DNA of 64,000 nt from contig JBAYKW010000001.1 of the NCBI GenBank assembly GCA_041664365.1, forward strand, positions 144,862 through 208,861. The letters are read 5' to 3'. The stretch is from Patescibacteria group bacterium (GTDB taxonomy: Bacteria > Patescibacteriota > Patescibacteriia > UM-FILTER-42-10). Within the stretch, counting starts at the first letter, position 1; each line of letters begins with the position of its first letter. This document shows, one piece after another, positions 1 through 64,000 of this stretch. A program made the translations under genes and the position numbers. Under the pieces are notes generated by a model. It saw only the letters and a list, made by a program, of their open reading frames with translations, did no database searches and was not told where the DNA came from.

Positions 1-417
1 TTCGACTGGAAGTCGTTCCGGTGCGTCACCAAGCTTGACATCAAGGATTACTACTGGCCGGACATCAGGTTCGGGTGCAAGGTGACGAAGCACGTCAAGT
101 CCAATTCCGTGATCGTGGTTTGGAAAGGGCGCACGATCGGTATCGGCAATGGACAGACCAGCCGAATCAAGTCGACCCGGCTCGCGCTGGAACAGGCCAT
201 GCATAACATGGAAGAGCAGAACATGGATCTGCACCACGCGGTGCTGATCTCGGACAGTTTCTTCCCGTTCGACGACTGCGTGCGCCTTGCGGGCGAGTTC
301 GGCATCAGGACGATTGTACAGCAGGGCGGATCGATGCGTGACCAGGATTCAATCAAGGCTGCAGACGAACTGGGCATCGCGATGCTGTTCACCGACCGCA
401 GGATGTTCTGGCACTAG
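1..417 (+). CDS. purH: bifunctional AICAR transformylase/IMP cyclohydrolase PurH, C-terminal fragment (5' end lies outside window)
   Basis: Frame 1 is open from nt 1. The translation ...CKVTKHVKSNSVIVV...QQGGSMRDQDSIKAADELGIAMLFTDRRMFWH matches the conserved PurH C-terminal region (KHVKSNAIV, GGSxRD). GC is ~60%, against ~35% in the downstream genes. Confidence 0.7.
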   Translation, partial: FDWKSFRCVTKLDIKDYYWPDIRFGCKVTKHVKSNSVIVVWKGRTIGIGNGQTSRIKSTRLALEQAMHNMEEQNMDLHHAVLISDSFFPFDDCVRLAGEFGIRTIVQQGGSMRDQDSIKAADELGIAMLFTDRRMFWH

Positions 418-480
418 AGGGCGGTTCGCTCATTTTTCACGGACCCTGTCTTAACTGCGGAAGTTTTGACAGGTTTTTTT

Positions 481-583
481 ATCCCGTTAGAAGCAGGATA
501 CCTCGCACCTCGTTGCGGGGATGGATGGACATAAGGTATAGAGAATACGGGTTTTAATACCTAAAGTGAGCTTCTAACGGGAT
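481..583. repeat. 14-bp perfect inverted repeat (ATCCCGTTAGAAGC ... GCTTCTAACGGGAT) enclosing ~75 nt; MITE-like or structured-RNA candidate at the high-GC to low-GC junction
   Basis: Read directly: 481-494 atcccgttagaagc and 570-583 gcttctaacgggat are exact reverse complements. The region is non-coding and lies between the purH 3' end and the next gene. Confidence 0.5.
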
Positions 584-629
584 TTATTCCGTAAAATGCG
601 ATATAATATGGGTAATGAAGGAATAAAAT

Positions 630-1154
630 ATGAACGAAAAAAATGAATTGATGATTGTCGTTGATAATAGTAATAATGCTATTGGGAAAGCGACAATGGA
701 GGAAATTAGGAAAAAGGGGCTTAATCACCGTTCAGTACACATTTTCATTTTCAATAAAGATAATGAACTCCTAATCTGTAAACGCCCTCATTTTAAAAAA
801 GCATACCCAAACATGTATACATCTTCTGCTGGAGGAAAAGTTAACTTTGGCGAGACATTTGAAGAATCCGCAAATCGAGAATTAAAAGAGGAATTAGGCA
901 TAGTAACTGAACTGTCAAAAGTTGGGTCTTACGTTATAGAAAATGAGCTGAAAAATAATAAAGTATTTCATGAACTATTTTATGGTATGTCAGAAGGACC
1001 GTTCAATCTTGATCCAAATGAGATTGTACAATGTGAATTTGTTAAATTAGATGAGATTAGTAAAAGAATAAAAAAGGATAATAATAATTTTGTAAGACCA
1101 TTTATTGATGCTTTTAAACTGTATTTAAAAATAAATGATACAAAGAAAAGTTGA
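630..1154 (+). CDS. Nudix hydrolase, isopentenyl-diphosphate isomerase (IDI type 1)-like
   Basis: The GETFEESANRELKEELGI Nudix box (GX5EX7REUXEEXGU) is present. Overall layout resembles small IDI-like Nudix proteins. Confidence 0.6.
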   Translation: MNEKNELMIVVDNSNNAIGKATMEEIRKKGLNHRSVHIFIFNKDNELLICKRPHFKKAYPNMYTSSAGGKVNFGETFEESANRELKEELGIVTELSKVGSYVIENELKNNKVFHELFYGMSEGPFNLDPNEIVQCEFVKLDEISKRIKKDNNNFVRPFIDAFKLYLKINDTKKS

Positions 1155-7389: not shown

Positions 7390-7499
7390 TATTTATTGCT
7401 CAATCAGTTAAAGTAACGGACTGATCTGTTTTTGGTCAGTTTGCTCATAAAATTAGGTCGAAGTTAGTAACCAAAGTCTCAATTCCGGGAGGTTTCCGC

Positions 7500-8753
7500 A
7501 TGAGAACCCTTTTGTGTTTGTGTGCCATCATTCTGATGGTGCTGCCTGGTCTTTCGGCAACAGCTGCCGAGCTCCAGTACAAGGCCGTTGCCGGACTCGA
7601 TGCAAGCCCCCGGCAAGTGGGCGGTGAACAGGTTGGAGACATCACGGCGTTCGGCTTGAAGCTGTTCGCCACGGATCCGCGCACGCACAGCATGCTTTTT
7701 GGCTTCCAGTACAAGGAATACGACAACAACGTGCCGGAGAGCGCGGGACTCGCTCTGACCAAGCATGAATTTGCCGCAGGAGTAAGCCTGCAGTTCAGCC
7801 GGCCTCTTTCGCTGAAGGTGGCCTACACGCAGGCTGAATACATGAACGACGATCCCTATTCCGCGTTCGGACTGTACCCCTGCTACCGTGGCGGTGATCG
7901 GGGACTGGATGCCGGTCTGGAGCGTGATCTGGCCGGGACCACATTCACGTTCCTGCAGGCGAAACTGAACCGAGGACACGGTACGTGGTACGGCAACGGG
8001 TCGTACGAGCGGTTTCTGACGACTGGTCACGGTTCTTCTGCTGAAGCGGAGAGCTTCGAGCGAATCGGCGGAGGGTATCTGTATTCGGTGCCGGACACGC
8101 GCTTCCGTCTTTTGGCCGGCGCCAACTACAATTTCACTGAGGCGAAACCCACCTGGATTTTTGGCGCTTCACACCACACAAACTCCGGATCGTCCGGCGT
8201 GAATCCGGCCCTTTCGGTATTCTACCGTCTGAAGCCGAATTCGCGGTATGCGCTGGGGATTCTGGCACTTTGGGCGGATTTCGGTCAGCATGCAACGCTT
8301 GGGATTCACGAGGCCGCGTTGCGTGGCGGTTTGAAACGGACGCAGATCATCGCCGGACGGAACATGGGGGATCCGGGAATCGGATCGGCATACGACGCCA
8401 GTGATTTCGGTCTGATCACTTTCGCCGCATCACTGATGTCAGTGGACGCCGGGGATGCGACTTTGATCGAGAACGATCTGACCGGTTACGCGACCTATCC
8501 TGGTTCAATTCTGGGAGTCGCACGGCCGTACATCGGTGCTACGTGGGTCGAGTCGTCTGACCTGATCTATGACCCCTCTCTGCACAGTCTCACCGATCCC
8601 GAGCAGTCCAGGACGGAGTTCAAGCTGGGAGCGAAGATTCCGGTCGGCACGGTTAACCCTGATGACCGGAATTATGAGACTGGCTACCTGCGGGTTGAGC
8701 TGGTCGTAAACAACATCGGCGGTGGAAGCATCAAATTCCAGCACTGGTTCTAG
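7500..8753 (+). CDS. putative outer-membrane beta-barrel protein (signal peptide, C-terminal ...KFQHWF), lying in a high-GC island
   Basis: Signal peptide ends SATA-AE. There are alternating amphipathic strands and a terminal aromatic Phe typical of OMP beta-barrels. GC is ~60% with a strong GGGAGG RBS, both out of character for the backbone. Confidence 0.5.
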   Translation: MRTLLCLCAIILMVLPGLSATAAELQYKAVAGLDASPRQVGGEQVGDITAFGLKLFATDPRTHSMLFGFQYKEYDNNVPESAGLALTKHEFAAGVSLQFSRPLSLKVAYTQAEYMNDDPYSAFGLYPCYRGGDRGLDAGLERDLAGTTFTFLQAKLNRGHGTWYGNGSYERFLTTGHGSSAEAESFERIGGGYLYSVPDTRFRLLAGANYNFTEAKPTWIFGASHHTNSGSSGVNPALSVFYRLKPNSRYALGILALWADFGQHATLGIHEAALRGGLKRTQIIAGRNMGDPGIGSAYDASDFGLITFAASLMSVDAGDATLIENDLTGYATYPGSILGVARPYIGATWVESSDLIYDPSLHSLTDPEQSRTEFKLGAKIPVGTVNPDDRNYETGYLRVELVVNNIGGGSIKFQHWF

Positions 8754-8776
8754 CACATCGTGCCCATAGGGGTACA

Positions 8777-8813
8777 CGCGCTGTTTTGAGAGGGGAATAC
8801 AGCGCTTTTTTTA
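8777..8813 (+). terminator. rho-independent terminator after the OMP gene
   Basis: Stem GCGCTGT / ACAGCGC followed by TTTTTTT, read directly. Confidence 0.6.
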
Positions 8814-10738: not shown

Positions 10739-11215
10739 TTATTCAAAAATTATTCCAGATAAATATCTTTCTATCAAAATTTTGTCTGCCGGGAATAGAT
10801 TAAGTTTTAAAGCATCCTTTGGTGTATACCATTGCCAATCCAATCGTCCCTCGTTCTCGAGATCGGAAAAGTTACCATCTACATAATCTGCCTTCATTCC
10901 AATAGTAACATAACTTTTTTCTTTATCGGTTCTATAAAAATCATATACCGAAATAAGTTGAATATTTTCTATTTTAATACCACTTTCCTCTTTAACCTCA
11001 CGAGCAGCACATTCTTTTAGCGTTTCGCCTGATTCCCAATGTCCACCTGGAACACCAAAGACAGCTTCTCCCTTACGAGTATCTTTGCCAATGGCAATTT
11101 TCCCCTCTTTTGCTACAACCGTAGCCACTCCAATAGATGGAGGATTGGATTCATTATTTTGAGACATAAGTTTATTTTTAATATATATTTTGAAAATATT
11201 TCGCCTAACAGACAA
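10739..11215 (-). CDS. Nudix hydrolase
   Basis: Nudix box GGHWESGETLKECAAREVKEESGI. Confidence 0.7.
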   Translation of the reverse strand: MSVRRNIFKIYIKNKLMSQNNESNPPSIGVATVVAKEGKIAIGKDTRKGEAVFGVPGGHWESGETLKECAAREVKEESGIKIENIQLISVYDFYRTDKEKSYVTIGMKADYVDGNFSDLENEGRLDWQWYTPKDALKLNLFPADKILIERYLSGIIFE

Positions 11216-15836: not shown

Positions 15837-16035
15837 ATTGCAAAAACTGTAAGAGGAAATTTTTTGTTTACATAACTTAATAGTACATAAGCGGTTCTGC
15901 TTATTACACTTTGTCACATTACTCATATTTGCCGAGTTGTAGCCATCGGTATATCACGTAACATGTAGTAGTTGCTTATGCGCAAACGTTAAACAAGTAA
16001 ATAAAAAAAGCGCTGATTGAATATCAACGCGCGCT

Positions 16036-16335
16036 TTAGTCTTCCCCGGATTCTCTCCAACTCTTTGTGCAGTTCTGGCAGCGGTATTCTACCTGTGTTT
16101 TTCCGAAGGAGAATATTCCGGAGAATGATGAGAAGGTGCGTTGACGAGTGGGAAAGACCAGGTAGTGGCGTGTCTTACAGACGGGACAGCAACGTTTCCC
16201 TTCTTCATCGCGAGGGATGAGATGATCTTCTAAAGGTGCAAGGTATATGACCGCCGCGATGGTCAGAAACAGGGGGTGGATGAAAAGTCCGAAAAGAAGC
16301 ATTATACAGAAAAGAACACGCTGGTTGCCTGACAT
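16036..16335 (-). CDS. small membrane protein with C-terminal zinc-ribbon (CPVC...CQNC), in a high-GC island
   Basis: GGAGGAGGTG RBS upstream of the second Met. Two TM helices, then CxxC...CxxC. A terminator hairpin AGCGC...GCGCT plus a T-run follows on the minus strand at about 16000-16035. Confidence 0.3.
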   Translation of the reverse strand: MSGNQRVLFCIMLLFGLFIHPLFLTIAAVIYLAPLEDHLIPRDEEGKRCCPVCKTRHYLVFPTRQRTFSSFSGIFSFGKTQVEYRCQNCTKSWRESGED

Positions 16336-16482
16336 TTTCACCTCCTCCATGAATTAATAAGTCAGCCTACAGGACAGTTAACAATGCTAATCTATTTGCG
16401 TTTTGCTGTCAATATTTGTAAATAAAAAATGGGCGAGTTTTGTGGACTCGCCCGGTGTGCATCTCAACGATGATCTTCTTCT

Positions 16483-16938
16483 CTACGCCTTCGCGTAGGC
16501 TGCGACAATTTCGGATGACAGGGCATCCGGTCCGATCCGCTGAATCAGCGCGGCAGCCTGCTTTCTGGTCGGCTTCGCCGTGCCGGTTCGTGGGTCGAGC
16601 TTCGGAATGCTCAGGAGGTTGACGGGGGGCGAGTAGCCTCCCGCCATGGCATCAGTCACATCCTGATCGAAGCAGCGCTGCAGGTAGCTGTGCAGGGGTC
16701 CTGCGGGGGTCATGGGGTTGTTGGAGTTCATGCAGCTCCCGCAGACGCACAACAGGACGGTGCGCGCGCATCCGACGGGGGATTCCTTGTCCTTGGGGGA
16801 CACTGACTGGACTACGAGCACGTGGCTCGAAGACCATTGGGTTTTGTCGCACATGCGAGATCCTCTCATCATTAGAGTCGTGGGCATTGACTGCTCTGAC
16901 GGAGAAGATCGCATGTCAACCGAACCCGCGATGTGCAT
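16483..16938 (-). CDS. hypothetical cysteine-rich protein (high-GC island); reading frame uncertain
   Basis: Longest ORF in the ~60% GC segment and contains a CVCGSC cluster. Several overlapping alternative frames are open, as expected at high GC, so the call is weak. Confidence 0.25.
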   Translation of the reverse strand: MHIAGSVDMRSSPSEQSMPTTLMMRGSRMCDKTQWSSSHVLVVQSVSPKDKESPVGCARTVLLCVCGSCMNSNNPMTPAGPLHSYLQRCFDQDVTDAMAGGYSPPVNLLSIPKLDPRTGTAKPTRKQAAALIQRIGPDALSSEIVAAYAKA

Positions 16939-17224
16939 GACACCACGAGTACATAGTGGGTACCTCCCTGTAGGATCGGGGTTGTGGGGTGGCCAACAGA
17001 TACGGACAGAGTGTCCGCACTACAAAATGGTAGAAGAAAGTGGGGTAGGAGGACACGCATTTAGCAAATCCCAGAGGGCAACATCTGCCCACGGGCGAGC
17101 GAACTCGCCAGTCAATGTTACCCAATGGGTAGCATTTCTGCCTGCTTTTTGGTGTTGCGGTCCTCCCACCCACATCGTTGTTTCAAAGGTCAATATACAA
17201 AGAAAGTAATACAAATATGCCCTA

Positions 17225-17269
17225 TTGTCAAGACTAGTGTAATATTGTACAAAGCTGCCAGCTTGACAA
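17225..17269. promoter_or_regulatory. candidate ArsR operator: inverted repeat TTGTCAAG-n25-CTTGACAA containing palindrome AAGCTGCCAGCTT
   Basis: Read directly, upstream of the arsR-family gene. ArsR/SmtB regulators typically bind imperfect 12-2-12 inverted repeats overlapping their own promoter. Confidence 0.4.
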
Positions 17270-17307
17270 ATTAATAAAACTGATATAACATTAAAACAGT
17301 TGAGCAA

Positions 17308-17658
17308 ATGATAAAACGTAATATGCTGACACAGAAACAGGTATTAAAAAATAAAAACTGGTTACTTAAAAACGGTAAACATATAAAAATCCAAAGTGAT
17401 CTTTGTAATGTTTTATCTGATCCGACCAGGATAAAAATATTGCTGTTATTAAAACATTACAAAGAGATTTGCGTTTCAGATATCGCATCCATTTTGGATG
17501 TAAGTGTCAGTGCGGTATCACATCAGCTGAGTATGATGGAACGCTCCAATATTGTGACTAAATACAAAATGGGTAAACATGTCTGCTACTTGCTTGAAAT
17601 TAATGATAAAAAGATGGTTGGAATGCTGGATAATCATTTAGATAAACATATTCACTAA
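17308..17658 (+). CDS. ArsR/SmtB-family transcriptional regulator
   Basis: LSDPTRIKILLLL...ICVSDIASILDVSVSAVSHQLSMM is a winged-HTH ArsR signature. Confidence 0.75.
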   Translation: MIKRNMLTQKQVLKNKNWLLKNGKHIKIQSDLCNVLSDPTRIKILLLLKHYKEICVSDIASILDVSVSAVSHQLSMMERSNIVTKYKMGKHVCYLLEINDKKMVGMLDNHLDKHIH

Positions 17659-18315: not shown

Positions 18316-20055
18316 ATGTTCCTACTTATTTTATTTGCGTTTATTGGCGGTGTTGTAACAATTCTTTCCCCGTGCATTCTGCCTGTTCTGCCTATTATAC
18401 TGTCCGGGTCAGTTGGGGGAGGTAAGCGCAAACCATTGGGCATTGTATTCGGATTTGTTCTGAGTTTTACTTTCTTTACACTATTCTTAACGTCAATTGT
18501 TAATATTTTAGGTGTCCCCGCAGATTCGCTAAGAAATTTATCAGTAATTATAATACTGATTTTTGGAATTTTCCTGTTTGTACCTAGATTTCAGATTTTA
18601 TTAGAAAAATTGTTTTCGAAACTTGCCAGCAAAGCGCCAAGACAGGGAAACTCAACCGGTTTTTCCGGCGGAATACTAATCGGATTAAGCCTGGGACTTA
18701 TCTGGACTCCTTGCGTTGGACCAATTTTAGCGTCAGTTATTTCCCTTGCTCTTACCGGAACAGTAACGGGTTCGGCTTTGCTTATCACGCTGGCATATTC
18801 ACTCGGTACTGCTATACCGATGCTGATAGTAATGCAGGGCGGCAGGAAAATTTTACTGAAAGTGCCGGGACTTATGAAAAATACAGTTAAAATACAGAAG
18901 GTGTTTGGTTTAATAATGGTATTGACTGCTTTCGGAATATTTTTTAATATTGACCGTTCTTTTCAAACATATATTTTAAATGTATTCCCGAATTATGGCA
19001 GCGGATTAACGGCAATTGAAGACAATAATGCGGTAAAACAGCAACTGGATAAAATTAGAAATGGCACAATCAATGAGGAAGACATGGGAAAGACATTAGA
19101 TCAAATTACAAATCTGGCACCGGAACTGATCCCTGGAGGAGAATGGATAAATTCTGACCCACTGACACTAAAGGAGCTAAGGGGAAAGGTTGTATTATTA
19201 GATATTTGGACATACTCTTGCATTAATTGTATTCGTACGCTGCCCTATATCCAGGCCTGGCACGAAAAGTACCGAGATCAGGGCTTGGTGATAATCGGTG
19301 TTCATACGCCGGAATTTGAGTTTGAAAAGATTGCGGATAACGTACGAAAAGCGACAGTTGATTTCGGTTTGACTTACCCAATCATGCAGGACAATAACTA
19401 TGCCACATGGCGGGCGTATAAAAATAACTACTGGCCACGTAAATTCCTGGTGGATCATACGGGAAAAATTATTTATGATCACATTGGAGAAGGTGATTAT
19501 GCTCAAACGGAAATGGAAATTATCAAAGCCCTAGAAAATATGAATGAATCTAACGGGGATTCATCAGAGATTAGCAATGATTTGGTAAATGCAGTAAAAA
19601 CGGATACTAATTATTTACAACAAAGAAGCCCAGAGACATATTTTGGTTCAGCCAGAAATAGTAATTTAGCAAATGGTACTCCCTCCAAAAGCGGTGTGCA
19701 AAATTTTATTGTTCCCAATACTATAAAATCCAATAAATTGTATCTGGAAGGTGAATGGGATATCACGGCGGAATATGCGCAAAATATTAATCCTGGTGAC
19801 AAAATTGTGTTTGAATATCAGGGGAAGGACGTTTATTTAGTTGCGAGCGCAGAAGATTCAGTACAATTATCAATACTTCGGGACGGTCAAAAGGCGGGTG
19901 AGGATGGCGGTGCGGATTTATCATCTGAAAGCACTATGAATATTACGGATGAACGGTTATATAGAATTATCGAGGCCAGCGATTATGGTACGCATACATT
20001 AGAAATAATTATCAATCAGCCCGGCTTGCGGGCATTTGCATTTACGTTTGGCTAG
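18316..20055 (+). CDS. cytochrome c biogenesis CcdA/DsbD-like membrane domain fused to TlpA/ResA-type redoxin and a C-terminal extracytoplasmic domain
   Basis: LSPCILPVLP and TPCVGPIL Cys motifs in a 6-TM DsbD core. Followed by a thioredoxin-like domain with WTYSCINCIRTLPY (CxxC). Confidence 0.75.
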   Translation: MFLLILFAFIGGVVTILSPCILPVLPIILSGSVGGGKRKPLGIVFGFVLSFTFFTLFLTSIVNILGVPADSLRNLSVIIILIFGIFLFVPRFQILLEKLFSKLASKAPRQGNSTGFSGGILIGLSLGLIWTPCVGPILASVISLALTGTVTGSALLITLAYSLGTAIPMLIVMQGGRKILLKVPGLMKNTVKIQKVFGLIMVLTAFGIFFNIDRSFQTYILNVFPNYGSGLTAIEDNNAVKQQLDKIRNGTINEEDMGKTLDQITNLAPELIPGGEWINSDPLTLKELRGKVVLLDIWTYSCINCIRTLPYIQAWHEKYRDQGLVIIGVHTPEFEFEKIADNVRKATVDFGLTYPIMQDNNYATWRAYKNNYWPRKFLVDHTGKIIYDHIGEGDYAQTEMEIIKALENMNESNGDSSEISNDLVNAVKTDTNYLQQRSPETYFGSARNSNLANGTPSKSGVQNFIVPNTIKSNKLYLEGEWDITAEYAQNINPGDKIVFEYQGKDVYLVASAEDSVQLSILRDGQKAGEDGGADLSSESTMNITDERLYRIIEASDYGTHTLEIIINQPGLRAFAFTFG

Positions 20056-20214
20056 CTGCGAATAAAAGTAGGAAACAGATCATTAAGGAGAATATATTCA
20101 ATTTTAAAATTTATAAAATACTGAAATAGTATCTGTAGTTATGTAAATACAAAATCAGAATTGAACAGCTGGCTGGATCCTAAACAATATATTTAAAAAT
20201 TAGCTTTAAATAAT

Positions 20215-20781
20215 ATGTCAGAGAATACTTTGAATATACCGATCATTCTTGGTACGACTAGGGAAGGCCGTGAAAGTGAGAAAGTTGCGAAATATATTGA
20301 GAAAAAGGTAAAAGAAAAAACGGAAATTGTTACTAAATTAATTGATGTAAGGAAACTGGATTTCTCCGGCACAGAAGGACGTGACTTAGGTGATAAGAAT
20401 ATTGAGTTTAAAGAATCAATTACTAATGCTGATGGTTTGATTATAGTTACACCCGAGTATAATCACAGTTTCCCGGGTAGTTTAAAAATGGCATTGGATA
20501 TGTTTTTGCCTGAATATAAACATAAAGCGGTCGGGTTATGCGGTGTTTCCGACGGCGGGTTTGGTGGCGCAAGAGCAATTGAAGGTCTGGTGTCTGTTAT
20601 GAAAACACTCCGATTATCTATGATTAAACCTGATTTGAATTTCTCATTGGTTGATCAACTATTCGACAAAAATGGTAACGTTTTAGATAACTCATACGAT
20701 AAAAGAATAGAGAGCTTTTTGGAGGAACTAATTTGGATGACAAAAACCCTTAAATGGGGAAGAAATAGTATTATAAATTAA
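20215..20781 (+). CDS. NADPH-dependent FMN reductase (flavodoxin-like FMN_red family)
   Basis: IPIILGTTREGRESEKVAKYI...GLIIVTPEYNHSFPGSLKMALD is a typical FMN_red family pattern. Confidence 0.7.
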   Translation: MSENTLNIPIILGTTREGRESEKVAKYIEKKVKEKTEIVTKLIDVRKLDFSGTEGRDLGDKNIEFKESITNADGLIIVTPEYNHSFPGSLKMALDMFLPEYKHKAVGLCGVSDGGFGGARAIEGLVSVMKTLRLSMIKPDLNFSLVDQLFDKNGNVLDNSYDKRIESFLEELIWMTKTLKWGRNSIIN

Positions 20782-33580: not shown

Positions 33581-34138
33581 ATGAAATTTCCAAAAAATTC
33601 GAAAAAGGTATTTACAGGAAAAATATTCAGTGTATATCAATGGCGCCAGAAGATGTATGACGGGACGTATAAGATATTTGAAGGTGCCTATCGAAAGGCA
33701 ACTGTTGATATTATTGCAACGGTTGGTGATAAAATAATCGTACTGAAGCAGGAACAGCCAACTAAACCGCTTTTTCCGTCGCTTCCGGGTGGTGGTATTG
33801 AAAGCGGCCAAACTGCTTTACAAACCGTAAAAAGGGAACTGCTGGAAGAAACCGGGTTTGCTGCAAAAAAAATTATTAAATATAAATATTTTGAAGGAAC
33901 TCCCAAGATAATATTTCATCAGTTTGTTTTTATAGCCAAAGAATGTGCCAAAGTTTCCGATCAGCATCTGGATAGCGGTGAAAGAATTACAGTTACTTTT
34001 AAAACCTTTGATCAGTTTTTGCAGCTTTGCCGTGACGAACGTTTTACCGCAGTACTCGGCCTACGATTTATAATGTATGAAGCACTTTTGGATCGGAAAA
34101 AATATATGGAATTGAAAAAAGTGATATTCAAAAAATAG
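33581..34138 (+). CDS. Nudix hydrolase (ADP-ribose pyrophosphatase-like)
   Basis: Nudix box GGGIESGQTALQTVKRELLEETGF. Confidence 0.7.
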   Translation: MKFPKNSKKVFTGKIFSVYQWRQKMYDGTYKIFEGAYRKATVDIIATVGDKIIVLKQEQPTKPLFPSLPGGGIESGQTALQTVKRELLEETGFAAKKIIKYKYFEGTPKIIFHQFVFIAKECAKVSDQHLDSGERITVTFKTFDQFLQLCRDERFTAVLGLRFIMYEALLDRKKYMELKKVIFKK

Positions 34139-34148
34139 ACGAAAACTT

Positions 34149-34604
34149 ATGCCCAAGAGAGACTATTACCACATATCTTTAAAGCTGATTTTAAAAAATG
34201 AAAAAGACGAAGTTTTGGTATTGGGTTCAGACCCGAAAGGGAGTCTGTTAGGCAAATATGATTTGCCCGGCGGTAGAATTGACGAGTCGGAATTTAGTAC
34301 TCCCTATGAGCAAATTATCAGACGCGAAGTTTCCGAGGAAGTCGGTAATATTGAATTATCACTAAATCAAAAGCCGGTCGCCATCGGTCGCCATTTAATT
34401 CCGAAAAAATTAACGAGTGAGAATAAGGATATTCACATCATGTATATATTTTTTGAAGCAAAAATGATCAGTGGCAACATACAGATCAGTTCAGAACATA
34501 ATGGATATAAATGGGTTAAACTTGGCGAGAATGATCCCGCTGACTATTTCACATCCGGTATTTTGGAAGGAATAAATATGTATCTATCTAATTCTAATAA
34601 ATAA
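34149..34604 (+). CDS. Nudix hydrolase
   Basis: Nudix box GGRIDESEFSTPYEQIIRREVSEEVG. Confidence 0.65.
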   Translation: MPKRDYYHISLKLILKNEKDEVLVLGSDPKGSLLGKYDLPGGRIDESEFSTPYEQIIRREVSEEVGNIELSLNQKPVAIGRHLIPKKLTSENKDIHIMYIFFEAKMISGNIQISSEHNGYKWVKLGENDPADYFTSGILEGINMYLSNSNK

Positions 34605-61904: not shown

Positions 61905-61975
61905 ATTTTGATCAAATAAAAAAACCGCATTCAGCAAAGATTGCTGGTGCGGTGTGGGGAATGAACGGCGTTCAG
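61905..61975. terminator. bidirectional terminator-like hairpin between convergent genes
   Basis: AAAAAACCGC...GCGGTTTTTTT with internal complementarity. Marks the boundary into the high-GC segment. Confidence 0.45.
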
Positions 61976-63969
61976 CGCGGTTTTTTTGCATGCAGCAGAT
62001 CTTTGAGAAATGCTGAAAACAGCGCTAGGTCAGCATGAGCGAAACGGATTGTTCTGGCGCTGAAAAGTAGCCAGATCCTTCCGTGGGCAACTCTGTGTTT
62101 CAAAATCCGCCAATGCTCCTCAATGTCCACCCGTGTGTTTCTGGCTGAAGTACGCATGTTGGCCAGTCGTAAACCACTTGGTACCTTATGACCATGTGAT
62201 TTATACAAACTCCTTAGCTCAGAGAGTTTGAGGTTCGGCCAATGGCCCGCATGCTTCTTTTCAACCAGCTGGATGACCTCTTCCTCGATCTTGCCCTGTT
62301 CACGGGTTTGTAGCCACACTTCCAGCATGATCCGCAGGAACCGGGCTGTCTCCCGGGCTAGGCGGATGTTTTCACGCGTGTTGTAGACCCAAAACTGGAA
62401 CAGATTGAGCTGAGGAAAACTGCTCCTCCTCGAATGCCGGGATCGCACCCGGGCAAAACCCGCCACCATCGGATGGCGTTTCGGCACCATCAGCGCGTAT
62501 TTGTACCAGACGAGGTTCCAGAAGATCTTCCAGTAATCCTGCCTTTCCGTATGTTTGAGGATACGTACCATGTTCTCGGTGGAATAGAACGTCTCCCACG
62601 CAGACCGGTAGGCGGATAGCCACTCCTCCCGGGTCATCAGCGGGTGATCTATGACCGGATGTGAGAATGAGTCGAAGGAGTTCAGGTCCGAATCCATCGG
62701 TACACCGGCTAGGAACAGCCGTTTGTGATCCATTGCTCCCGGCAGTGGTGTGGCAATGAAAAACGACACGGTATCCGGTTCCAGCTCCATCAGCTGAAGA
62801 ACGTCCTTATGCACTGATTCCGGCGTGTCGTGCGGCAGGCCGATCATGAAGGCAAGGTGGGTCGCGATGCCGTGCTTTTTGAAGGCAGACATCATTTCCC
62901 GGAACTGCTCCACGTGGTTTTGGCCTTTGCCGACCGCAGACAAGTTCAAAGGGTTCAGACTTTCGATCCCGATGAACGCCATCGAACAGCCGGCCAGCGC
63001 CGCTTTTTCTAGGAATTGCGGAATCTTGTGGCACTGGGTATCCACCTGCATCAGGAAGTGAATATGGATTCTTTCTTCTTTCTGCATGGCGATCAGCGTG
63101 TCGAAGCGCTCTTCCCAAAAAGGATCTCGGGCTGTGTTGTCAGAAGTCAGGAAGTAGACCCGAATGCCCAATCTCCAGTTGGCTCGGATCGCGTCCGCGA
63201 AACCCTGAACGCCTCGCGCCCTAATCACCCTGCCTTGGACTACCCAGATCGTGCAGTACTGGCAGTTGAATGGGCATCCACGGCACGCGTCGATGGTGCT
63301 GGTGTTCGGATAGACGAATCGGTGCTTAATCTCCGCAATGGACATTGGAACCGGTTCCTCCAGAAGGCTCGGCGGATCGTCGACGTAGTTGTATGTCGGC
63401 TTGAGACCGCCGGACAGAAAGTCCTGCAGCAATCCCAGCATCCTGCCTTCTGCTTCACCGGCAAACAGCGCCACGCCATTGTCGGTCAGAGCTTTCAGAC
63501 CCAGTTCCTTGTAGGCTCTCATGTTATCCGCGCTCCCGTCCTGCGGAAACTGCTTCAGGATTCCGGACACATGGTATCCGCCCATGATCACGGAAATTCC
63601 CCGTTTCCTGAACTCGAGCGCAAGATCGGAAGCTCGTACGAACTGGCTGGTTTGAACACCGGCCAGCATTACCAGAGTACGTCCGGGAAGGGTACGGCAG
63701 AGAAAAGCTATCCTGCTCGGCAGAACAGCCTCCACCGCCTCGTCGTAGATTCTGACGACGATGTGCACCTTGATTCCCAGTCGCAGATTTTGCCTCACAT
63801 CCTGAATCAGGCTGTAAAGCGTCGCCAGCGTATTGCTGGGATACACGCCCCGGAAGTCCTGCCAGACAAAGCCGTTCTCATCGTCGTATTTTGACGGTTT
63901 GATCAGCACCAAGTTGAGGACTTTCTTTCCCGAAAGCACAGCCCAGAAAGACGTTGTTTGTCTCGCCAA
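61972..63969 (-). CDS. B12-binding-domain radical SAM protein (cobalamin-dependent rSAM with DUF4070-like C-terminus), in a high-GC segment
   Basis: N-terminal Rossmann-like B12-binding region, then CRGCPFNCQYC (the CxxxCxxC radical SAM cluster motif) and a ~250-aa C-terminal domain. GC is ~58%. Confidence 0.75.
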   Translation of the reverse strand: MARQTTSFWAVLSGKKVLNLVLIKPSKYDDENGFVWQDFRGVYPSNTLATLYSLIQDVRQNLRLGIKVHIVVRIYDEAVEAVLPSRIAFLCRTLPGRTLVMLAGVQTSQFVRASDLALEFRKRGISVIMGGYHVSGILKQFPQDGSADNMRAYKELGLKALTDNGVALFAGEAEGRMLGLLQDFLSGGLKPTYNYVDDPPSLLEEPVPMSIAEIKHRFVYPNTSTIDACRGCPFNCQYCTIWVVQGRVIRARGVQGFADAIRANWRLGIRVYFLTSDNTARDPFWEERFDTLIAMQKEERIHIHFLMQVDTQCHKIPQFLEKAALAGCSMAFIGIESLNPLNLSAVGKGQNHVEQFREMMSAFKKHGIATHLAFMIGLPHDTPESVHKDVLQLMELEPDTVSFFIATPLPGAMDHKRLFLAGVPMDSDLNSFDSFSHPVIDHPLMTREEWLSAYRSAWETFYSTENMVRILKHTERQDYWKIFWNLVWYKYALMVPKRHPMVAGFARVRSRHSRRSSFPQLNLFQFWVYNTRENIRLARETARFLRIMLEVWLQTREQGKIEEEVIQLVEKKHAGHWPNLKLSELRSLYKSHGHKVPSGLRLANMRTSARNTRVDIEEHWRILKHRVAHGRIWLLFSARTIRFAHADLALFSAFLKDLLHAKKPR

Positions 63970-64000
63970 TTCACGCAGAACGGCGATGACAGCATGCGAC

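What the first reader, a model, noticed from the sequence alone, without database searches (positions are those of the whole stretch)
1..430. Window opens in the 3' end of a high-GC purH, then switches sharply to low GC at a 14-bp inverted-repeat element
The first 417 nt encode the PurH C-terminus at ~60% GC. The next gene (a Nudix) is ~33% GC. A CPR-like host would not be expected to carry de novo purine synthesis. The other high-GC blocks are the OMP gene, the 16-17 kb block and the B12-radical-SAM gene at 61972-63969. Taken together this looks like either a mosaic of acquired segments from one high-GC donor, or contig chimerism.
Basis: partly seen in the sequence, partly recalled or inferred. 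Interest (0 to 1): 0.5.

Follow-up and report, generated by a model that had tools for sequence, protein, structure and literature searches.

The report
Long-lived GC-rich purH in a Patescibacteria genome
The GC jump at the start of the window is real and is not an assembly error: purH is one of a few single genes that have stayed GC-rich at the same chromosomal spot in at least seven related AT-rich Patescibacteria (CPR) lineages. No donor can be found, so it looks like a maintained gene-specific composition rather than a recent import.

Summary
Window 1-417 is the PurH C-terminus at 57% GC (whole gene 59%, GC3 0.75). The Nudix gene is 30% GC. A perfect 14-nt inverted repeat lies at 481-494/570-583. 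OMP-like 7500-8753, the 16.4-17.2 kb block and the radical SAM gene at 61972-64000+ are the only other GC3 outliers among 84 ORFs.

Chimerism is refuted. The host is a Patescibacteria MAG on a 392-kb contig, and GC-rich purH sits at the same locus, upstream of the PHP phosphoesterase-domain gene (PHP), hyp, ABC and FtsX, in seven lineages from independent assemblies, including Ca. Kerfeldbacteria. PurH identity across them falls to 51%. The GC rise is confined to the coding sequence.

No donor exists in the databases. An exhaustive HMMER search gives a CPR PurH as best hit, then a gap to 44% identity. The OMP-like family exists only in this CPR group.

Substitution models tied to the neighbours' tree reject decay towards the neighbours' GC, and favour a separate GC-rich equilibrium (about 0.8 and 0.6 in two clades). 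With free branch lengths, slow decay from an ancestor at about 95% GC3 is not excluded.

The inverted repeat is not the island border. It is a single-locus 103-nt structured insertion found in three lineages only.

The parts
1..417 (+). 3' end (138 codons plus stop) of purH, the bifunctional AICAR transformylase / IMP cyclohydrolase gene. The full gene is 529 aa and begins 1173 nt upstream of the window (L001 8199-9788). It is a GC-rich island confined to the CDS: GC 0.57 here, 0.59 for the whole gene, GC3 0.75.
   Evidence: Pfam AICARFT_IMPCHas. The full-length protein passes the NCBIfam equivalog NF002049 at 589.6 bits against a cut-off of 402. Source contig and gene calls are, and the fine GC profile.
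419..441 (+). First small hairpin, GGGCG-GTT-CGCTC, followed by ATTTTT. Terminator-like.
   Evidence: Terminator scan and RNA fold.
445..480 (+). Main purH intrinsic terminator: hairpin CCUGUC...GACAGG followed by T7. Its 3' half and T-run (G[G/A]CAGGTTTTTTTAT) are conserved in six lineages of two clades; Ca. Kerfeldbacteria (L019) carries a variant (TGCAGGTTTTTCTAT).
   Evidence: Fold. Spacer comparison across L001, L005, L008, L011, L012, L022 and L019.
481..583 (+). 103-nt inverted-repeat element: a 14-bp closing stem (481-494/570-583) around three predicted inner hairpins. It is an insertion present only in three clade-A lineages and occurs at this one locus. Candidate structured RNA or protein-binding element; function unknown.
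   Evidence: Repeat search. Fold of the spacer, z = -3.9. Filled versus empty sites. A metagenome-wide pattern scan finds only this locus. It is 92% identical to L008 and 80% to L011, against 0.38-0.65 identity at 4-fold sites. No Rfam hit. No compensatory changes in three sequences.
584..629 (+). AT-rich promoter and RBS region of the next gene: TATAAT at 602-607, GAAGGA at 617-622, ATG at 630. The block AAAATG[C/A/G]GATATAAT is conserved upstream of the next gene in clades A and B; L022 carries a variant (AAAATAAGATATAAT).
   Evidence: Direct reading. Spacer comparison.
630..1154 (+). Nudix hydrolase gene, 30% GC. It lies between purH and the PHP phosphoesterase-domain gene only in the window's lineage; in the other five clade-A and clade-B lineages purH is followed directly by PHP, and in L019 by two other genes.
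   Evidence: Pfam NUDIX. Synteny tables.
7500..8753 (+). 'OMP-like' hypothetical protein of 417 aa (signal-peptide-like N-terminus, predicted all-beta, C-terminal ...HWF). GC 0.58, GC3 0.67. Orthologues after CNNM are also GC-rich in L005/L006, L012 and L022; the gene is absent in L008 and L011.
   Evidence: No Pfam or NCBIfam hit. Only 4 clusters in 5.8e9 proteins. GC in relatives. A Logan contig spans both junctions at 100% identity. The AF2 model is unusable at pLDDT 31.
16036..16350 (-). Small conserved protein of about 99-104 aa with a TM helix and CxxC...CxxC motifs. Moderately GC-rich (0.49).
   Evidence: ORF conserved in L008 at 19757-20071. Gene call.
16483..16851 (-). Conserved Cys-rich protein of about 122 aa (MCDKTQW...), in the GC-rich block. 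No family match.
   Evidence: ORF conserved in L008 at 20228-20593. No Pfam or NCBIfam hit.
16852..17200 (-). About 350 nt of GC-rich sequence upstream of the Cys-rich gene. It is strongly conserved with L008 but has no conserved ORF. Candidate structured leader or ncRNA.
   Evidence: Alignment showing frameshifts and a 33-nt insertion in L008. Fold z = -5.6. No Rfam match.
61972..64000 (-). Radical SAM protein with weak, below-cut-off similarity to B12-binding radical SAM families. The real gene is 695 aa and runs 59 nt past the window end. Single-gene GC-rich island: GC 0.54, GC3 0.67.
   Evidence: Pfam Radical_SAM. NCBIfam similarities to BchE/HpnJ-type families, all below cut-off. Gene call and flanks. 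GC values, and a Logan contig at 100% identity over both junctions.

Best explanation
The window opens inside a genuine chromosomal purH of a Patescibacteria (CPR) bacterium. purH is a single-gene GC-rich island confined to its coding sequence, in a genome of about 38% GC.

The island is old. The gene has been inherited at the same locus (...purH - [PHP phosphoesterase-domain gene] - hyp - ABC - FtsX - FeS - ... - Maf - CNNM) since the common ancestor of at least three clades, one of which is Ca. Kerfeldbacteria. An ancient horizontal origin is possible, but that is inference only, because no donor is detectable.

The GC-rich codon composition has not decayed at the pace of the neighbouring genes. 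It behaves as a gene-specific, quasi-stationary composition, with GC3 about 0.75-0.80 in the window's clade and about 0.60 in a sister clade. I infer that a GC-favouring force acts on the coding sequence. Selection on synonymous sites or the mRNA is most compatible with the CDS-limited boundaries. Biased gene conversion is the alternative.

Three other loci in the window share the feature: the OMP-like gene, the Cys-rich gene with its leader, and the radical SAM gene. The first and last share purH's codon signature.

Functionally, a lone PurH would convert AICAR (ZMP) to IMP. That is a salvage step, not full de novo purine synthesis. This point is inferred.

The 14-bp inverted repeat is a separate feature. 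It is the closing stem of a 103-nt structured element inserted between the purH terminator and the next promoter in one subclade, and it has been conserved there above the neutral level.
For: Shown:
1. Seven lineages from independent samples and assemblers carry GC-rich purH (GC 0.54-0.61, GC3 0.60-0.81) in the same synteny, with flanks at GC 0.30-0.47. The terminator and downstream promoter motifs are orthologous across six of them, with variant forms in Ca. Kerfeldbacteria.
2. The PurH identity matrix gives clade A 0.76-0.85, clade B 0.82, A-B 0.52-0.55 and Kerfeldbacteria 0.51-0.58. All score 0.43-0.48 against a 69%-GC bacterium with a full pur operon. Exhaustive HMMER finds the CPR PurH as best hit at 508 bits, then a gap to 414 bits.
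3. The GC rise is confined to the CDS. The leader is 0.30-0.48 and the sequence after the terminators is 0.26.
4. A two-state non-stationary ML model on synonymous third positions, tied to the tree of 814 flank sites, gives these log-likelihoods: flank clock plus flank equilibrium about -850; scaled clock (r = 0.31, root GC3 0.94-0.98) -682 to -699; flank clock plus own equilibrium (0.80 and 0.60) -673. In 60 simulations under slow-clock decay, the own-equilibrium model never won (mean difference -23, maximum -4). The observed difference is +8.9 to +25.
5. A four-taxon analysis gives pi* = 0.78 (about 0.60-0.87). The flank value of 0.40 is rejected with LRT 8-10.
6. Polarised changes at codon positions 1+2 are balanced in all three clades: 77:75, 24:34 and 23:29.
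7. At 4-fold sites purH, the OMP-like gene and the radical SAM gene share G>C>T>A with a G/C ratio of about 1.5. That matches the resident AT-rich genes (1.4) and differs from the high-GC bacterium, where C is at least G.
8. The inverted-repeat element occurs at a single locus, has filled and empty sites, and is 92% and 80% identical between lineages whose 4-fold sites are 38-65% identical.
Against: - With fully free branch lengths for purH, the flank equilibrium is not rejected (LRT 5.3, 2 df, p about 0.07). The data then fit a root GC3 of about 0.97 and branches about 0.3 times the flank lengths.
- Parsimony-polarised 4-fold singletons show S>W 34 against W>S 7 in clade A. This is the direction expected for decay, although the statistic is biased that way in GC-rich sequence.
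- The model has two states, no among-site rate variation, and uses only 210-346 sites.
- The flanks show signs of inter-lineage recombination, so the purH genealogy may differ from the flank tree.
- In Ca. Kerfeldbacteria the contrast is small: GC3 0.61 against 0.44-0.54.
- No mechanism for a gene-specific GC-favouring force has been demonstrated.
- No compensatory base changes support the inverted-repeat structure in three sequences.
Confidence: 0.55

Rival explanations
1. Ancient HGT followed by ordinary but slow neutral amelioration. purH and the other blocks entered an ancestor of these CPR clades from a very GC-rich donor (GC3 at least 0.95) and are still decaying. Their synonymous sites simply turn over about three times more slowly than the neighbours', or the purH alleles coalesce more recently because of inter-lineage recombination.
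For: - A free-branch fit with flank equilibria is not rejected (LRT 5.3, 2 df). It gives a root GC3 of 0.97.
- There is a parsimony excess of S>W, 34:7.
- Divergence of purH at 4-fold sites is about half that of the flanks within clade A.
- Bacteria with purH GC3 of 0.92 do exist, for example L014.
- Mosaic identity patterns in the flanks show that recombination occurs among these lineages.
Against: - It needs two special assumptions at once: a near-100% GC3 ancestor and a threefold slower clock in each of several unrelated genes.
- When tied to the flank tree it fits worse by 9-25 lnL, and it is rejected by simulation.
- Codon positions 1+2 show no net AT-ward flux.
- The G/C ratio at 4-fold sites is already the resident one.
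- No donor homologue is known.
- Non-coding DNA next to the CDS is fully AT-rich.
Confidence: 0.28
2. GC-biased gene conversion at recombination hot spots. These genes are exchanged unusually often among co-occurring related CPR populations, and biased repair of heteroduplex DNA keeps them GC-rich.
For: - Synonymous divergence of purH is lower than in the flanks among three lineages that co-occur in one metagenome.
- Recombination-like mosaics are seen in the flanks.
- An own-equilibrium model fits.
Against: - The GC rise stops exactly at the CDS ends, whereas conversion tracts should spill into the leader and spacer.
- The same genes would have to stay hot spots in clades that diverged to 51-58% PurH identity.
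- No direct recombination test was done on purH.
Confidence: 0.1
3. Recent mosaic of segments imported from one high-GC donor.
For: - There is a sharp GC contrast with GC3 outliers.
- purH, the OMP-like gene and the radical SAM gene share a codon pattern.
Against: - The same GC-rich genes sit at orthologous positions in up to seven lineages.
- The nearest homologues are CPR proteins.
- No mobility genes, tRNAs or flanking repeats bracket the blocks.
Confidence: 0.04
4. Contig chimerism or mis-assembly joined reads of a GC-rich organism to an AT-rich CPR genome.
For: Two short contigs from other data sets (L002, L003) end at window 533 and 472, inside the purH-Nudix spacer.
Against: - Those ends fall inside stretches of 63 nt and 32 nt that are identical in a co-occurring relative (L008). 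That explains the graph breaks.
- Other contigs span the OMP-like and radical SAM junctions at 100% identity.
- purH in the same context is assembled independently by JGI, ENA/MEGAHIT, SPAdes and Logan, and in an NCBI MAG, including a 1.18-Mb contig.
- AT-rich genes lie on both sides of every block.
Confidence: 0.02

Closest known systems
Compositionally atypical horizontally acquired genes undergoing amelioration (Lawrence and Ochman 1997 model; own knowledge)
   Same: Single genes whose GC, and especially GC3, deviate strongly from the resident genome. Each has its own promoter and terminator, and the functions are metabolic or accessory.
   Different: - The deviation is shared by orthologues at the same locus across lineages with saturated synonymous divergence.
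- No donor or patchy distribution is seen for purH.
- No mobility genes are present.
- The composition fits a separate equilibrium better than decay.
- The foreign-looking genes are GC-rich in an AT-rich host, whereas most atypical bacterial genes are AT-rich.
PurH (AICAR transformylase / IMP cyclohydrolase; Pfam MGS plus AICARFT_IMPCHas; NCBIfam NF002049)
   Same: The full-length protein on the source contig passes the equivalog model and has both domains. The window holds its C-terminal 138 residues, ending in the conserved ...RMFWH.
   Different: - It occurs without a pur operon at this locus in six lineages; in Ca. Kerfeldbacteria (L019) an AIRS-domain gene lies next to it.
- The CPR sequences form their own long-branched cluster, at most 48% identical to the non-CPR sequences seen.
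GC-content heterogeneity attributed to selection or biased gene conversion in bacteria (Hildebrand 2010; Hershberg and Petrov 2010; Lassalle 2015; own knowledge)
   Same: The equilibrium GC at synonymous sites is higher than the local mutational expectation.
   Different: The published effects are genome-wide or regional and modest. Here the offset is about 0.3-0.4 in GC3, is limited to individual coding sequences, and persists across clades.
MITEs and REP-like intergenic palindromic elements
   Same: The element at 481-583 is short (103 nt), has perfect 14-bp terminal inverted repeats, lies in an intergenic region next to a terminator, and shows insertion polymorphism between lineages.
   Different: It is single-copy: a metagenome-wide scan finds only this locus. 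It has no clear target-site duplication, and it is conserved well above neutral expectation.

Membership tests
PurH (bifunctional AICARFT / IMPCHase) | Match to the curated equivalog HMM above its cut-off, with both the MGS-like and AICARFT_IMPCHas domains | tested here: met
   NF002049 scores 589.6 bits against a cut-off of 402 for the full-length P0001. Pfam PF02142 and PF01808 are recorded for the gene. The window fragment matches PF01808 positions 250-311 of 311.
Classical horizontally acquired genomic island | Atypical base composition and codon usage relative to the genome | tested here: met
   GC3 is 0.75 against a median of 0.37 (MAD 0.05).
Classical horizontally acquired genomic island | Patchy distribution: present in this genome but absent at the same locus in close relatives | tested here: not met
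   purH is present at the same locus in all 7 lineages examined. The OMP-like gene is partly patchy, being absent in L008 and L011.
Classical horizontally acquired genomic island | Closest homologues lie in a different (donor) lineage | tested here: not met
   For PurH, the best hits outside its own clade are CPR proteins (Kerfeldbacteria, 508 bits), followed by a gap to 414 bits. The OMP-like family is restricted to this CPR group.
Classical horizontally acquired genomic island | Mobility signatures at the borders: tRNA, integrase or transposase, flanking direct repeats | tested here: not met
   There are no tRNAs in the window. No such domains appear in the gene tables around purH, the OMP-like gene or the radical SAM gene. 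The inverted repeat lies on one side only and is absent in four lineages that still have the island.
MITE | Terminal inverted repeats and small size | tested here: met
   14-bp perfect terminal repeats on a 103-nt element.
MITE | Multiple copies in the genome or in related genomes | tested here: not met
   It is unique in the window. The pattern scan of 241 million metagenome records returned only the purH-downstream locus of the L008 and L011 lineages. The scan needed two exact conserved blocks, so diverged copies could be missed.
MITE | Target-site duplication | tested here: inconclusive
   Comparison of filled and empty sites shows no clean duplication. Only an ambiguous TTTAT/ATTTAT is present.
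Intrinsic (Rho-independent) terminator | GC-rich hairpin followed directly by a T-run downstream of the stop codon | tested here: met
   Hairpins at 419-431 plus ATTTTT and at 445-473 plus T7. The second is conserved across clades.
Any Rfam family (including ZTP/pfl riboswitch, tRNA-like RNAs, ribozymes) | Covariance-model score at or above the gathering threshold | tested here: not met
   No hit at the gathering threshold in the whole window. Only chance-level hits were found for 380-700, for the purH leader and for 15900-17400.
   No Pfam or NCBIfam match. The AF2 model has pLDDT 31 and is unusable. Its secondary structure is mostly beta after an N-terminal helix.
B12-binding (class B) radical SAM enzyme | Radical_SAM core plus an N-terminal B12-binding domain, or a match above a family cut-off | tested here: inconclusive
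   Pfam Radical_SAM only. The similarities to BchE, HpnJ and other B12-binding radical SAM models all fall far below their cut-offs.

The most novel reading that the evidence does not exclude
A small set of coding sequences in these Patescibacteria is held at a GC-rich compositional equilibrium. The set comprises purH, an OMP-like secreted protein, a Cys-rich small protein with its leader, and a radical SAM enzyme. Their GC3 is about 0.3-0.4 above the rest of the genome. The state has lasted for the whole history of several clades, through a gene-specific force acting on synonymous sites. That would make them stable, heritable 'micro-isochores' at single-gene resolution, not fading traces of transfer. 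It would be a mode of intragenomic composition control not described in bacteria. It would also mean that GC-based HGT calls in CPR genomes can be systematically wrong.
Probability: 0.4. Interest if true: 0.8.

Novelty: new variant of a known kind. Interest (0 to 1): 0.55.

Why it matters
- Composition-based calls of horizontal transfer and of contamination or chimerism are routine in curating CPR and other MAGs. Here blocks that look foreign are orthologous, ancient and stable, so such filters would wrongly remove or misdate real genes.
- If the GC-rich state is actively maintained, it gives a tractable natural case for separating mutation bias from selection or biased conversion at synonymous sites. 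The same genes can be compared across many co-occurring lineages with different background GC.
- The locus also shows that this CPR group has long kept a lone PurH. This bears on how organisms without de novo purine synthesis obtain IMP, possibly by AICAR salvage.

Tried and rejected
- Chimerism: rejected (see rival explanations). The ends of short contigs at 472 and 533 are explained by exact stretches of 63 nt and 32 nt shared with a co-occurring relative.
- Overlapping antisense gene as the cause of constrained synonymous sites: the long antisense stop-free frames in purH break at different places in each lineage. They are equally present in an unrelated GC-rich purH. Rejected.
- Riboswitch upstream of purH (ZTP/pfl was the obvious candidate): no Rfam hit in the leader.
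- The inverted repeat as a known RNA, tRNA-like element or integron attC site:
  - No Rfam hit and no tRNA.
  - The GTTAGAA/TTCTAAC motifs lie in the opposite order to attC R''/R' and miss the consensus at one position (direct reading).
- The inverted repeat as a multicopy MITE: only one locus was found.
- Covariation support for the inverted-repeat fold: 0 compensatory pairs among 3 sequences, so uninformative.
- Parsimony polarisation at third positions with outgroups: dominated by ascertainment bias, with opposite artefacts in purH and in the flanks. Not used.
- A constant logit offset between purH GC4 and flank GC4 looked tidy for clades A and B (about 1.3-1.6) but fails for Kerfeldbacteria (about 0.5). 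Dropped as an argument.
- Structure prediction of the OMP-like protein: pLDDT 31, so no fold search was run.
- DNA context of the closest radical SAM homologue (P0126): no DNA was available, so the GC of the radical SAM orthologues could not be checked.
- The first exact look-up of the radical SAM and Cys-rich proteins failed because my ORF starts were wrong. The radical SAM gene runs off the window.
- Two literature searches found nothing on GC-rich gene islands in CPR.
Full report
**1. Observation**

Window 1-417 is the last 138 codons of purH. It matches Pfam AICARFT_IMPCHas to the end of the model, and the frame ends in TAG at 415-417. Its GC is 57.1%, against 30.1% for the Nudix gene at 630-1154.

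A perfect 14-nt inverted repeat lies at 481-494/570-583 with 75 nt between the arms. It is unique in the window.

A 200-nt sliding profile finds only four long stretches above 50% GC: 1-550, 7451-8800, 16401-17200 and 61951-64000. Among 84 non-overlapping ORFs the median GC3 is 0.37 (MAD 0.05), and only the genes in these four blocks exceed 0.55.

One correction is needed. GC falls in steps: 0.57 in the CDS, 0.46 in the terminators, 0.47 in the repeat element, and 0.26 after position 584. The repeat is therefore not the compositional border.

**2. Source and host**

- The Nudix protein is encoded on ENA ERZ27249449 contig k141_744634, which is 392,022 bp. Window position 1 corresponds to L001 position 9372.
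- NCBI holds the same proteins as 'MAG... [Patescibacteria group bacterium]'.
- The nearest GTDB representative carrying a close PurH (83% identity) is 'Patescibacteria group bacterium isolate SO_2016_GW1_116'.
- A PurH at 49-51% identity belongs to Ca. Kerfeldbacteria.
- The rest of the window holds ordinary bacterial genes (BipA, GluRS, 4-alpha-glucanotransferase, DsbD, a histidine kinase) and many Nudix paralogues.

**3. Not a chimera**

Upstream of the window, only purH (L001 8199-9788, 529 aa) is GC-rich. The nine genes before it are again 0.32-0.45 GC.

Logan contigs from SRR6484324 are 100% identical to the window over 4480 bp spanning both junctions of the OMP-like gene. They are also identical over 6615 bp spanning both junctions of the radical SAM gene.

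Two short contigs carrying the Nudix gene end at window 472 and 533. Those positions fall inside exact stretches of 63 nt (442-504) and 32 nt (531-562) shared with a related population (L008) from the same metagenome. Graph branching explains the breaks.

**4. The island is orthologous and old**

GC-rich purH lies at the same locus, upstream of the PHP phosphoesterase-domain gene (PHP), a hypothetical gene (hyp), ABC, FtsX, FeS-assembly, Maf and CNNM, in:

- L005/L006/L007 (JGI 1.18-Mb contig, Logan, JGI)
- L008/L009/L010 (ENA, JGI, NCBI MAG)
- L011/L017 (ENA, JGI)
- L012/L013 (SPAdes assembly, Logan)
- L022 (ENA)
- L019/L020 (Ca. Kerfeldbacteria GCA_002784945.1 and ENA). Here an AIRS-domain gene and a 140-aa gene lie between purH and PHP, and the contig ends after FtsX.

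| Lineage or clade | purH GC | purH GC3 | Flank GC3 |
|---|---|---|---|
| Clade A (L001, L005, L008, L011) | 0.58-0.61 | 0.75-0.81 | 0.36-0.49 |
| L012 | 0.565 | 0.65 | 0.25-0.38 |
| L022 | 0.54 | 0.60 | 0.18-0.32 |
| L019 (Kerfeldbacteria) | 0.54 | 0.61 | 0.44-0.54 |

PurH identities are 0.76-0.85 within clade A and 0.82 within clade B. They are 0.52-0.55 between A and B, and 0.51-0.58 to Kerfeldbacteria.

The 3' half and T-run of the terminator (G[G/A]CAGGTTTTTTTAT) are shared across clades A and B, with a variant (TGCAGGTTTTTCTAT) in Kerfeldbacteria. The next promoter block (AAAATGCGATATAAT) is shared across clades A and B. The locus is therefore homologous and was not colonised repeatedly.

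The other blocks show the same persistence:

- The OMP-like gene follows CNNM and is GC-rich in L005/L006, L012 and L022 (GC 0.51-0.60). It is absent in L008 and L011.
- The 16-17.2 kb block aligns over about 1.45 kb with L008 (75% by BLAST) and is GC-rich there too.

**5. No donor**

An exhaustive HMMER search of 1.84 billion cluster representatives returns the Kerfeldbacteria PurH first (508 bits, 51%). The next hit scores 414 bits at 44% identity.

The word-indexed search of 5.8 billion proteins finds nothing between the CPR sequences and generic bacterial PurH at about 46-47% identity. One such hit (L014) sits in a 69%-GC genome with a full pur operon.

The OMP-like protein has four clusters in all, each from this CPR group. 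The closest radical SAM homologues are 53-57% identical. Those labelled Patescibacteria are 46-47% identical, ahead of the Acidobacteriota-type proteins at about 41-42%.

The 'one high-GC donor' idea therefore has no positive support.

**6. Is the GC-richness a fading relic?**

*Within clade A*
- Identity at 4-fold sites is 0.57-0.70 for purH against 0.38-0.48 for the flanks.
- With codon-family-specific chance levels, purH keeps about twice the signal of the flanks.

*Between clades A and B*
- 4-fold identity in purH is 0.40-0.43, against a chance level of 0.33-0.37. That is about the same as against an unrelated GC-rich purH (0.33-0.38), so these sites are nearly saturated.

*Parsimony*
- A singleton count gives S>W 34 against W>S 7 for purH, and 94:86 for the flanks.
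- This statistic is biased towards common-to-rare changes in skewed sequence, so I fitted models.

*Four-taxon model*
- A two-state non-stationary model on 346 synonymous sites gives an equilibrium GC3 of 0.78 for purH (about 0.60-0.87). Stationarity is not rejected, and the flank value of 0.40 is rejected with LRT 8-10.

*Six-taxon model tied to the flank tree*
- The flank tree comes from 814 sites, with pi* 0.36 and 0.21 and a path of about 2.5 relaxation units between clades. Fits of purH to that tree:

| Model for purH | lnL |
|---|---|
| Flank clock plus flank equilibrium | about -850 |
| Clock scaled by r = 0.31, root GC3 0.94-0.98 | -682 to -699 |
| Flank clock plus own equilibria (0.80 and 0.60-0.62) | -673 |
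| Scaled clock plus own equilibria (r = 0.7-0.8) | -670.5 to -671.6 |

- In 60 simulations under the slow-clock decay model, the own-equilibrium model never fitted better (mean -23, maximum -4). The observed advantage is +8.9 to +25.

*Independent support*
- Polarised changes at codon positions 1+2 in purH are balanced in all three clades (77:75, 24:34, 23:29).
- At 4-fold sites purH, the OMP-like gene and the radical SAM gene share G>C>T>A with a G/C ratio near 1.5. That equals the resident AT-rich genes (1.4) and differs from the 69%-GC bacterium, where C is at least G.
- The GC rise stops at the CDS ends.

*Caveat*
- If all purH branch lengths are free, the flank equilibria are not rejected (LRT 5.3, 2 df). 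The data then fit a root GC3 of 0.97 and branches about 0.3 times those of the flanks.
- The models are simple, with no rate heterogeneity and few sites. The flanks also show recombination-like mosaics.

I conclude that decay at the neighbours' pace is excluded. A maintained gene-specific GC-rich state is the best fit. Slow decay from an extreme ancestor remains a live rival.

**7. Mechanism (inferred)**

A force favouring G/C at synonymous sites of these coding sequences is required under the best model. The CDS-limited borders fit selection on the coding sequence or the mRNA better than biased gene conversion, because conversion tracts should spill into the leaders and spacers.

An overlapping antisense gene was tested and rejected. 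No riboswitch was found upstream. What the selected property might be is not known.

**8. The inverted-repeat element**

The purH-Nudix spacer holds two terminator hairpins (419-441 and 445-480). They are followed by a 103-nt element whose 14-bp arms close three predicted inner hairpins. The whole spacer folds with z = -3.9.

The element is present in L001, L008 and L011. It is absent in L005, L012 and L022, where the empty site reads ...GGCAGGTTTTTTT|ATTTGnnAAAAT...GATATAAT.

A scan of the metagenome collection for two conserved blocks of the element finds only this locus. The element is 92% identical to L008 and 80% to L011, while 4-fold sites are 38-65% identical, so it is under constraint.

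It has no Rfam match, no clear target-site duplication, and no compensatory changes in three sequences. I read it as a single-locus structured insertion, a candidate small RNA or binding site. It is unrelated to the origin of the GC island.

The Nudix gene itself lies between purH and PHP only in the window's lineage.

**9. Verdict**

- The chimerism reading is refuted.
- The 'recent mosaic from one donor' reading is not supported.
- What is there is an ancient, orthologous GC-rich purH with CDS-limited borders, together with three similar loci, in Patescibacteria. The composition appears to be maintained.
- This is a new variant of a known kind (compositional islands), of moderate to high interest. 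The deciding data would be population polymorphism and many-lineage non-stationary models.

Noticed in passing
window 16852-17200 (minus strand): About 350 nt of GC-rich sequence upstream of a conserved Cys-rich 122-aa gene. It is strongly conserved with lineage L008 but has no conserved ORF on either strand (frameshifts, and a 33-nt hairpin-like insertion in L008). It folds with z = -5.6 and has no Rfam match. Candidate new structured leader or ncRNA. The ENA gene call of a 163-aa plus-strand ORF here (16718-17209) is probably spurious.
   Followed up: partly
window 16036-16350 (-) and 16483-16851 (-): Two small conserved proteins without any family match. One has a TM helix plus CxxC...CxxC motifs. 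The other is Cys-rich (CARTVLLCVCGSC). They lie between a Phage_holin_4_2 gene and an ArsR/HTH_20 - thioredoxin - DsbD cluster, which might suggest a redox or metal link.
   Followed up: partly
window 7500-8753: The 'OMP-like' protein family has only four 90%-identity clusters in 5.8 billion proteins, all from this Patescibacteria group. It has a signal-peptide-like N-terminus, predicted beta strands and a C-terminal aromatic ...HWF. That is odd for bacteria thought to lack an outer membrane. The AF2 model was unusable (pLDDT 31).
   Followed up: partly
window 61972-64000 and beyond (L015 10479-12566): The radical SAM gene is 695 aa and starts 59 nt beyond the window end, so the 665-aa ORF listed from the window is truncated. 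It is followed outside the window by a 1781-aa A2M/PT-HINT/Big_5 giant protein.
   Followed up: yes
L015 19341-20408 (about 7 kb past the window end): Another GC-rich gene on the same contig (NMO / nitronate monooxygenase-like, GC 0.53, GC3 0.57). The set of GC-rich genes therefore extends beyond the window.
   Followed up: no
L019 9901-11889 (Ca. Kerfeldbacteria): Next to purH lie an AIRS/AIRS_C-domain gene (PurM-like, 476 aa, GC 0.55) and a 140-aa gene (GC 0.58). Both are also GC-rich against flanks of 0.43-0.47. This hints that the ancestral island may have held more purine-related genes.
   Followed up: no
L001/L005/L008/L011/L012 flanking genes (rSAM330, alpha/beta hydrolase): Identity patterns are mosaic. 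For rSAM330, L001-L008 is 0.90 and L005-L011 is 0.94, but cross pairs are 0.78-0.80. The L001 hydrolase is closer to clade B (0.61) than to its own clade (0.45-0.49). This suggests allele exchange among co-occurring CPR populations.
   Followed up: no
window 630-1154, 10739-11215, 33581-34604 and the L015 and L005 gene tables: There is an unusually large number of Nudix hydrolase paralogues in the window, and more on the adjoining parts of the contig and in relatives. This fits a lifestyle centred on nucleotide salvage.
   Followed up: no
L012 1-4453: Clade B carries GMP synthase, an IF-2B-family gene (R15P isomerase-like), a RuBisCO large subunit and an AMP/thymidine phosphorylase-like gene just upstream of the purH neighbourhood. 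The phosphorylase, isomerase and RuBisCO genes form the CPR nucleoside-salvage RuBisCO pathway, sitting next to the lone purH.
   Followed up: no
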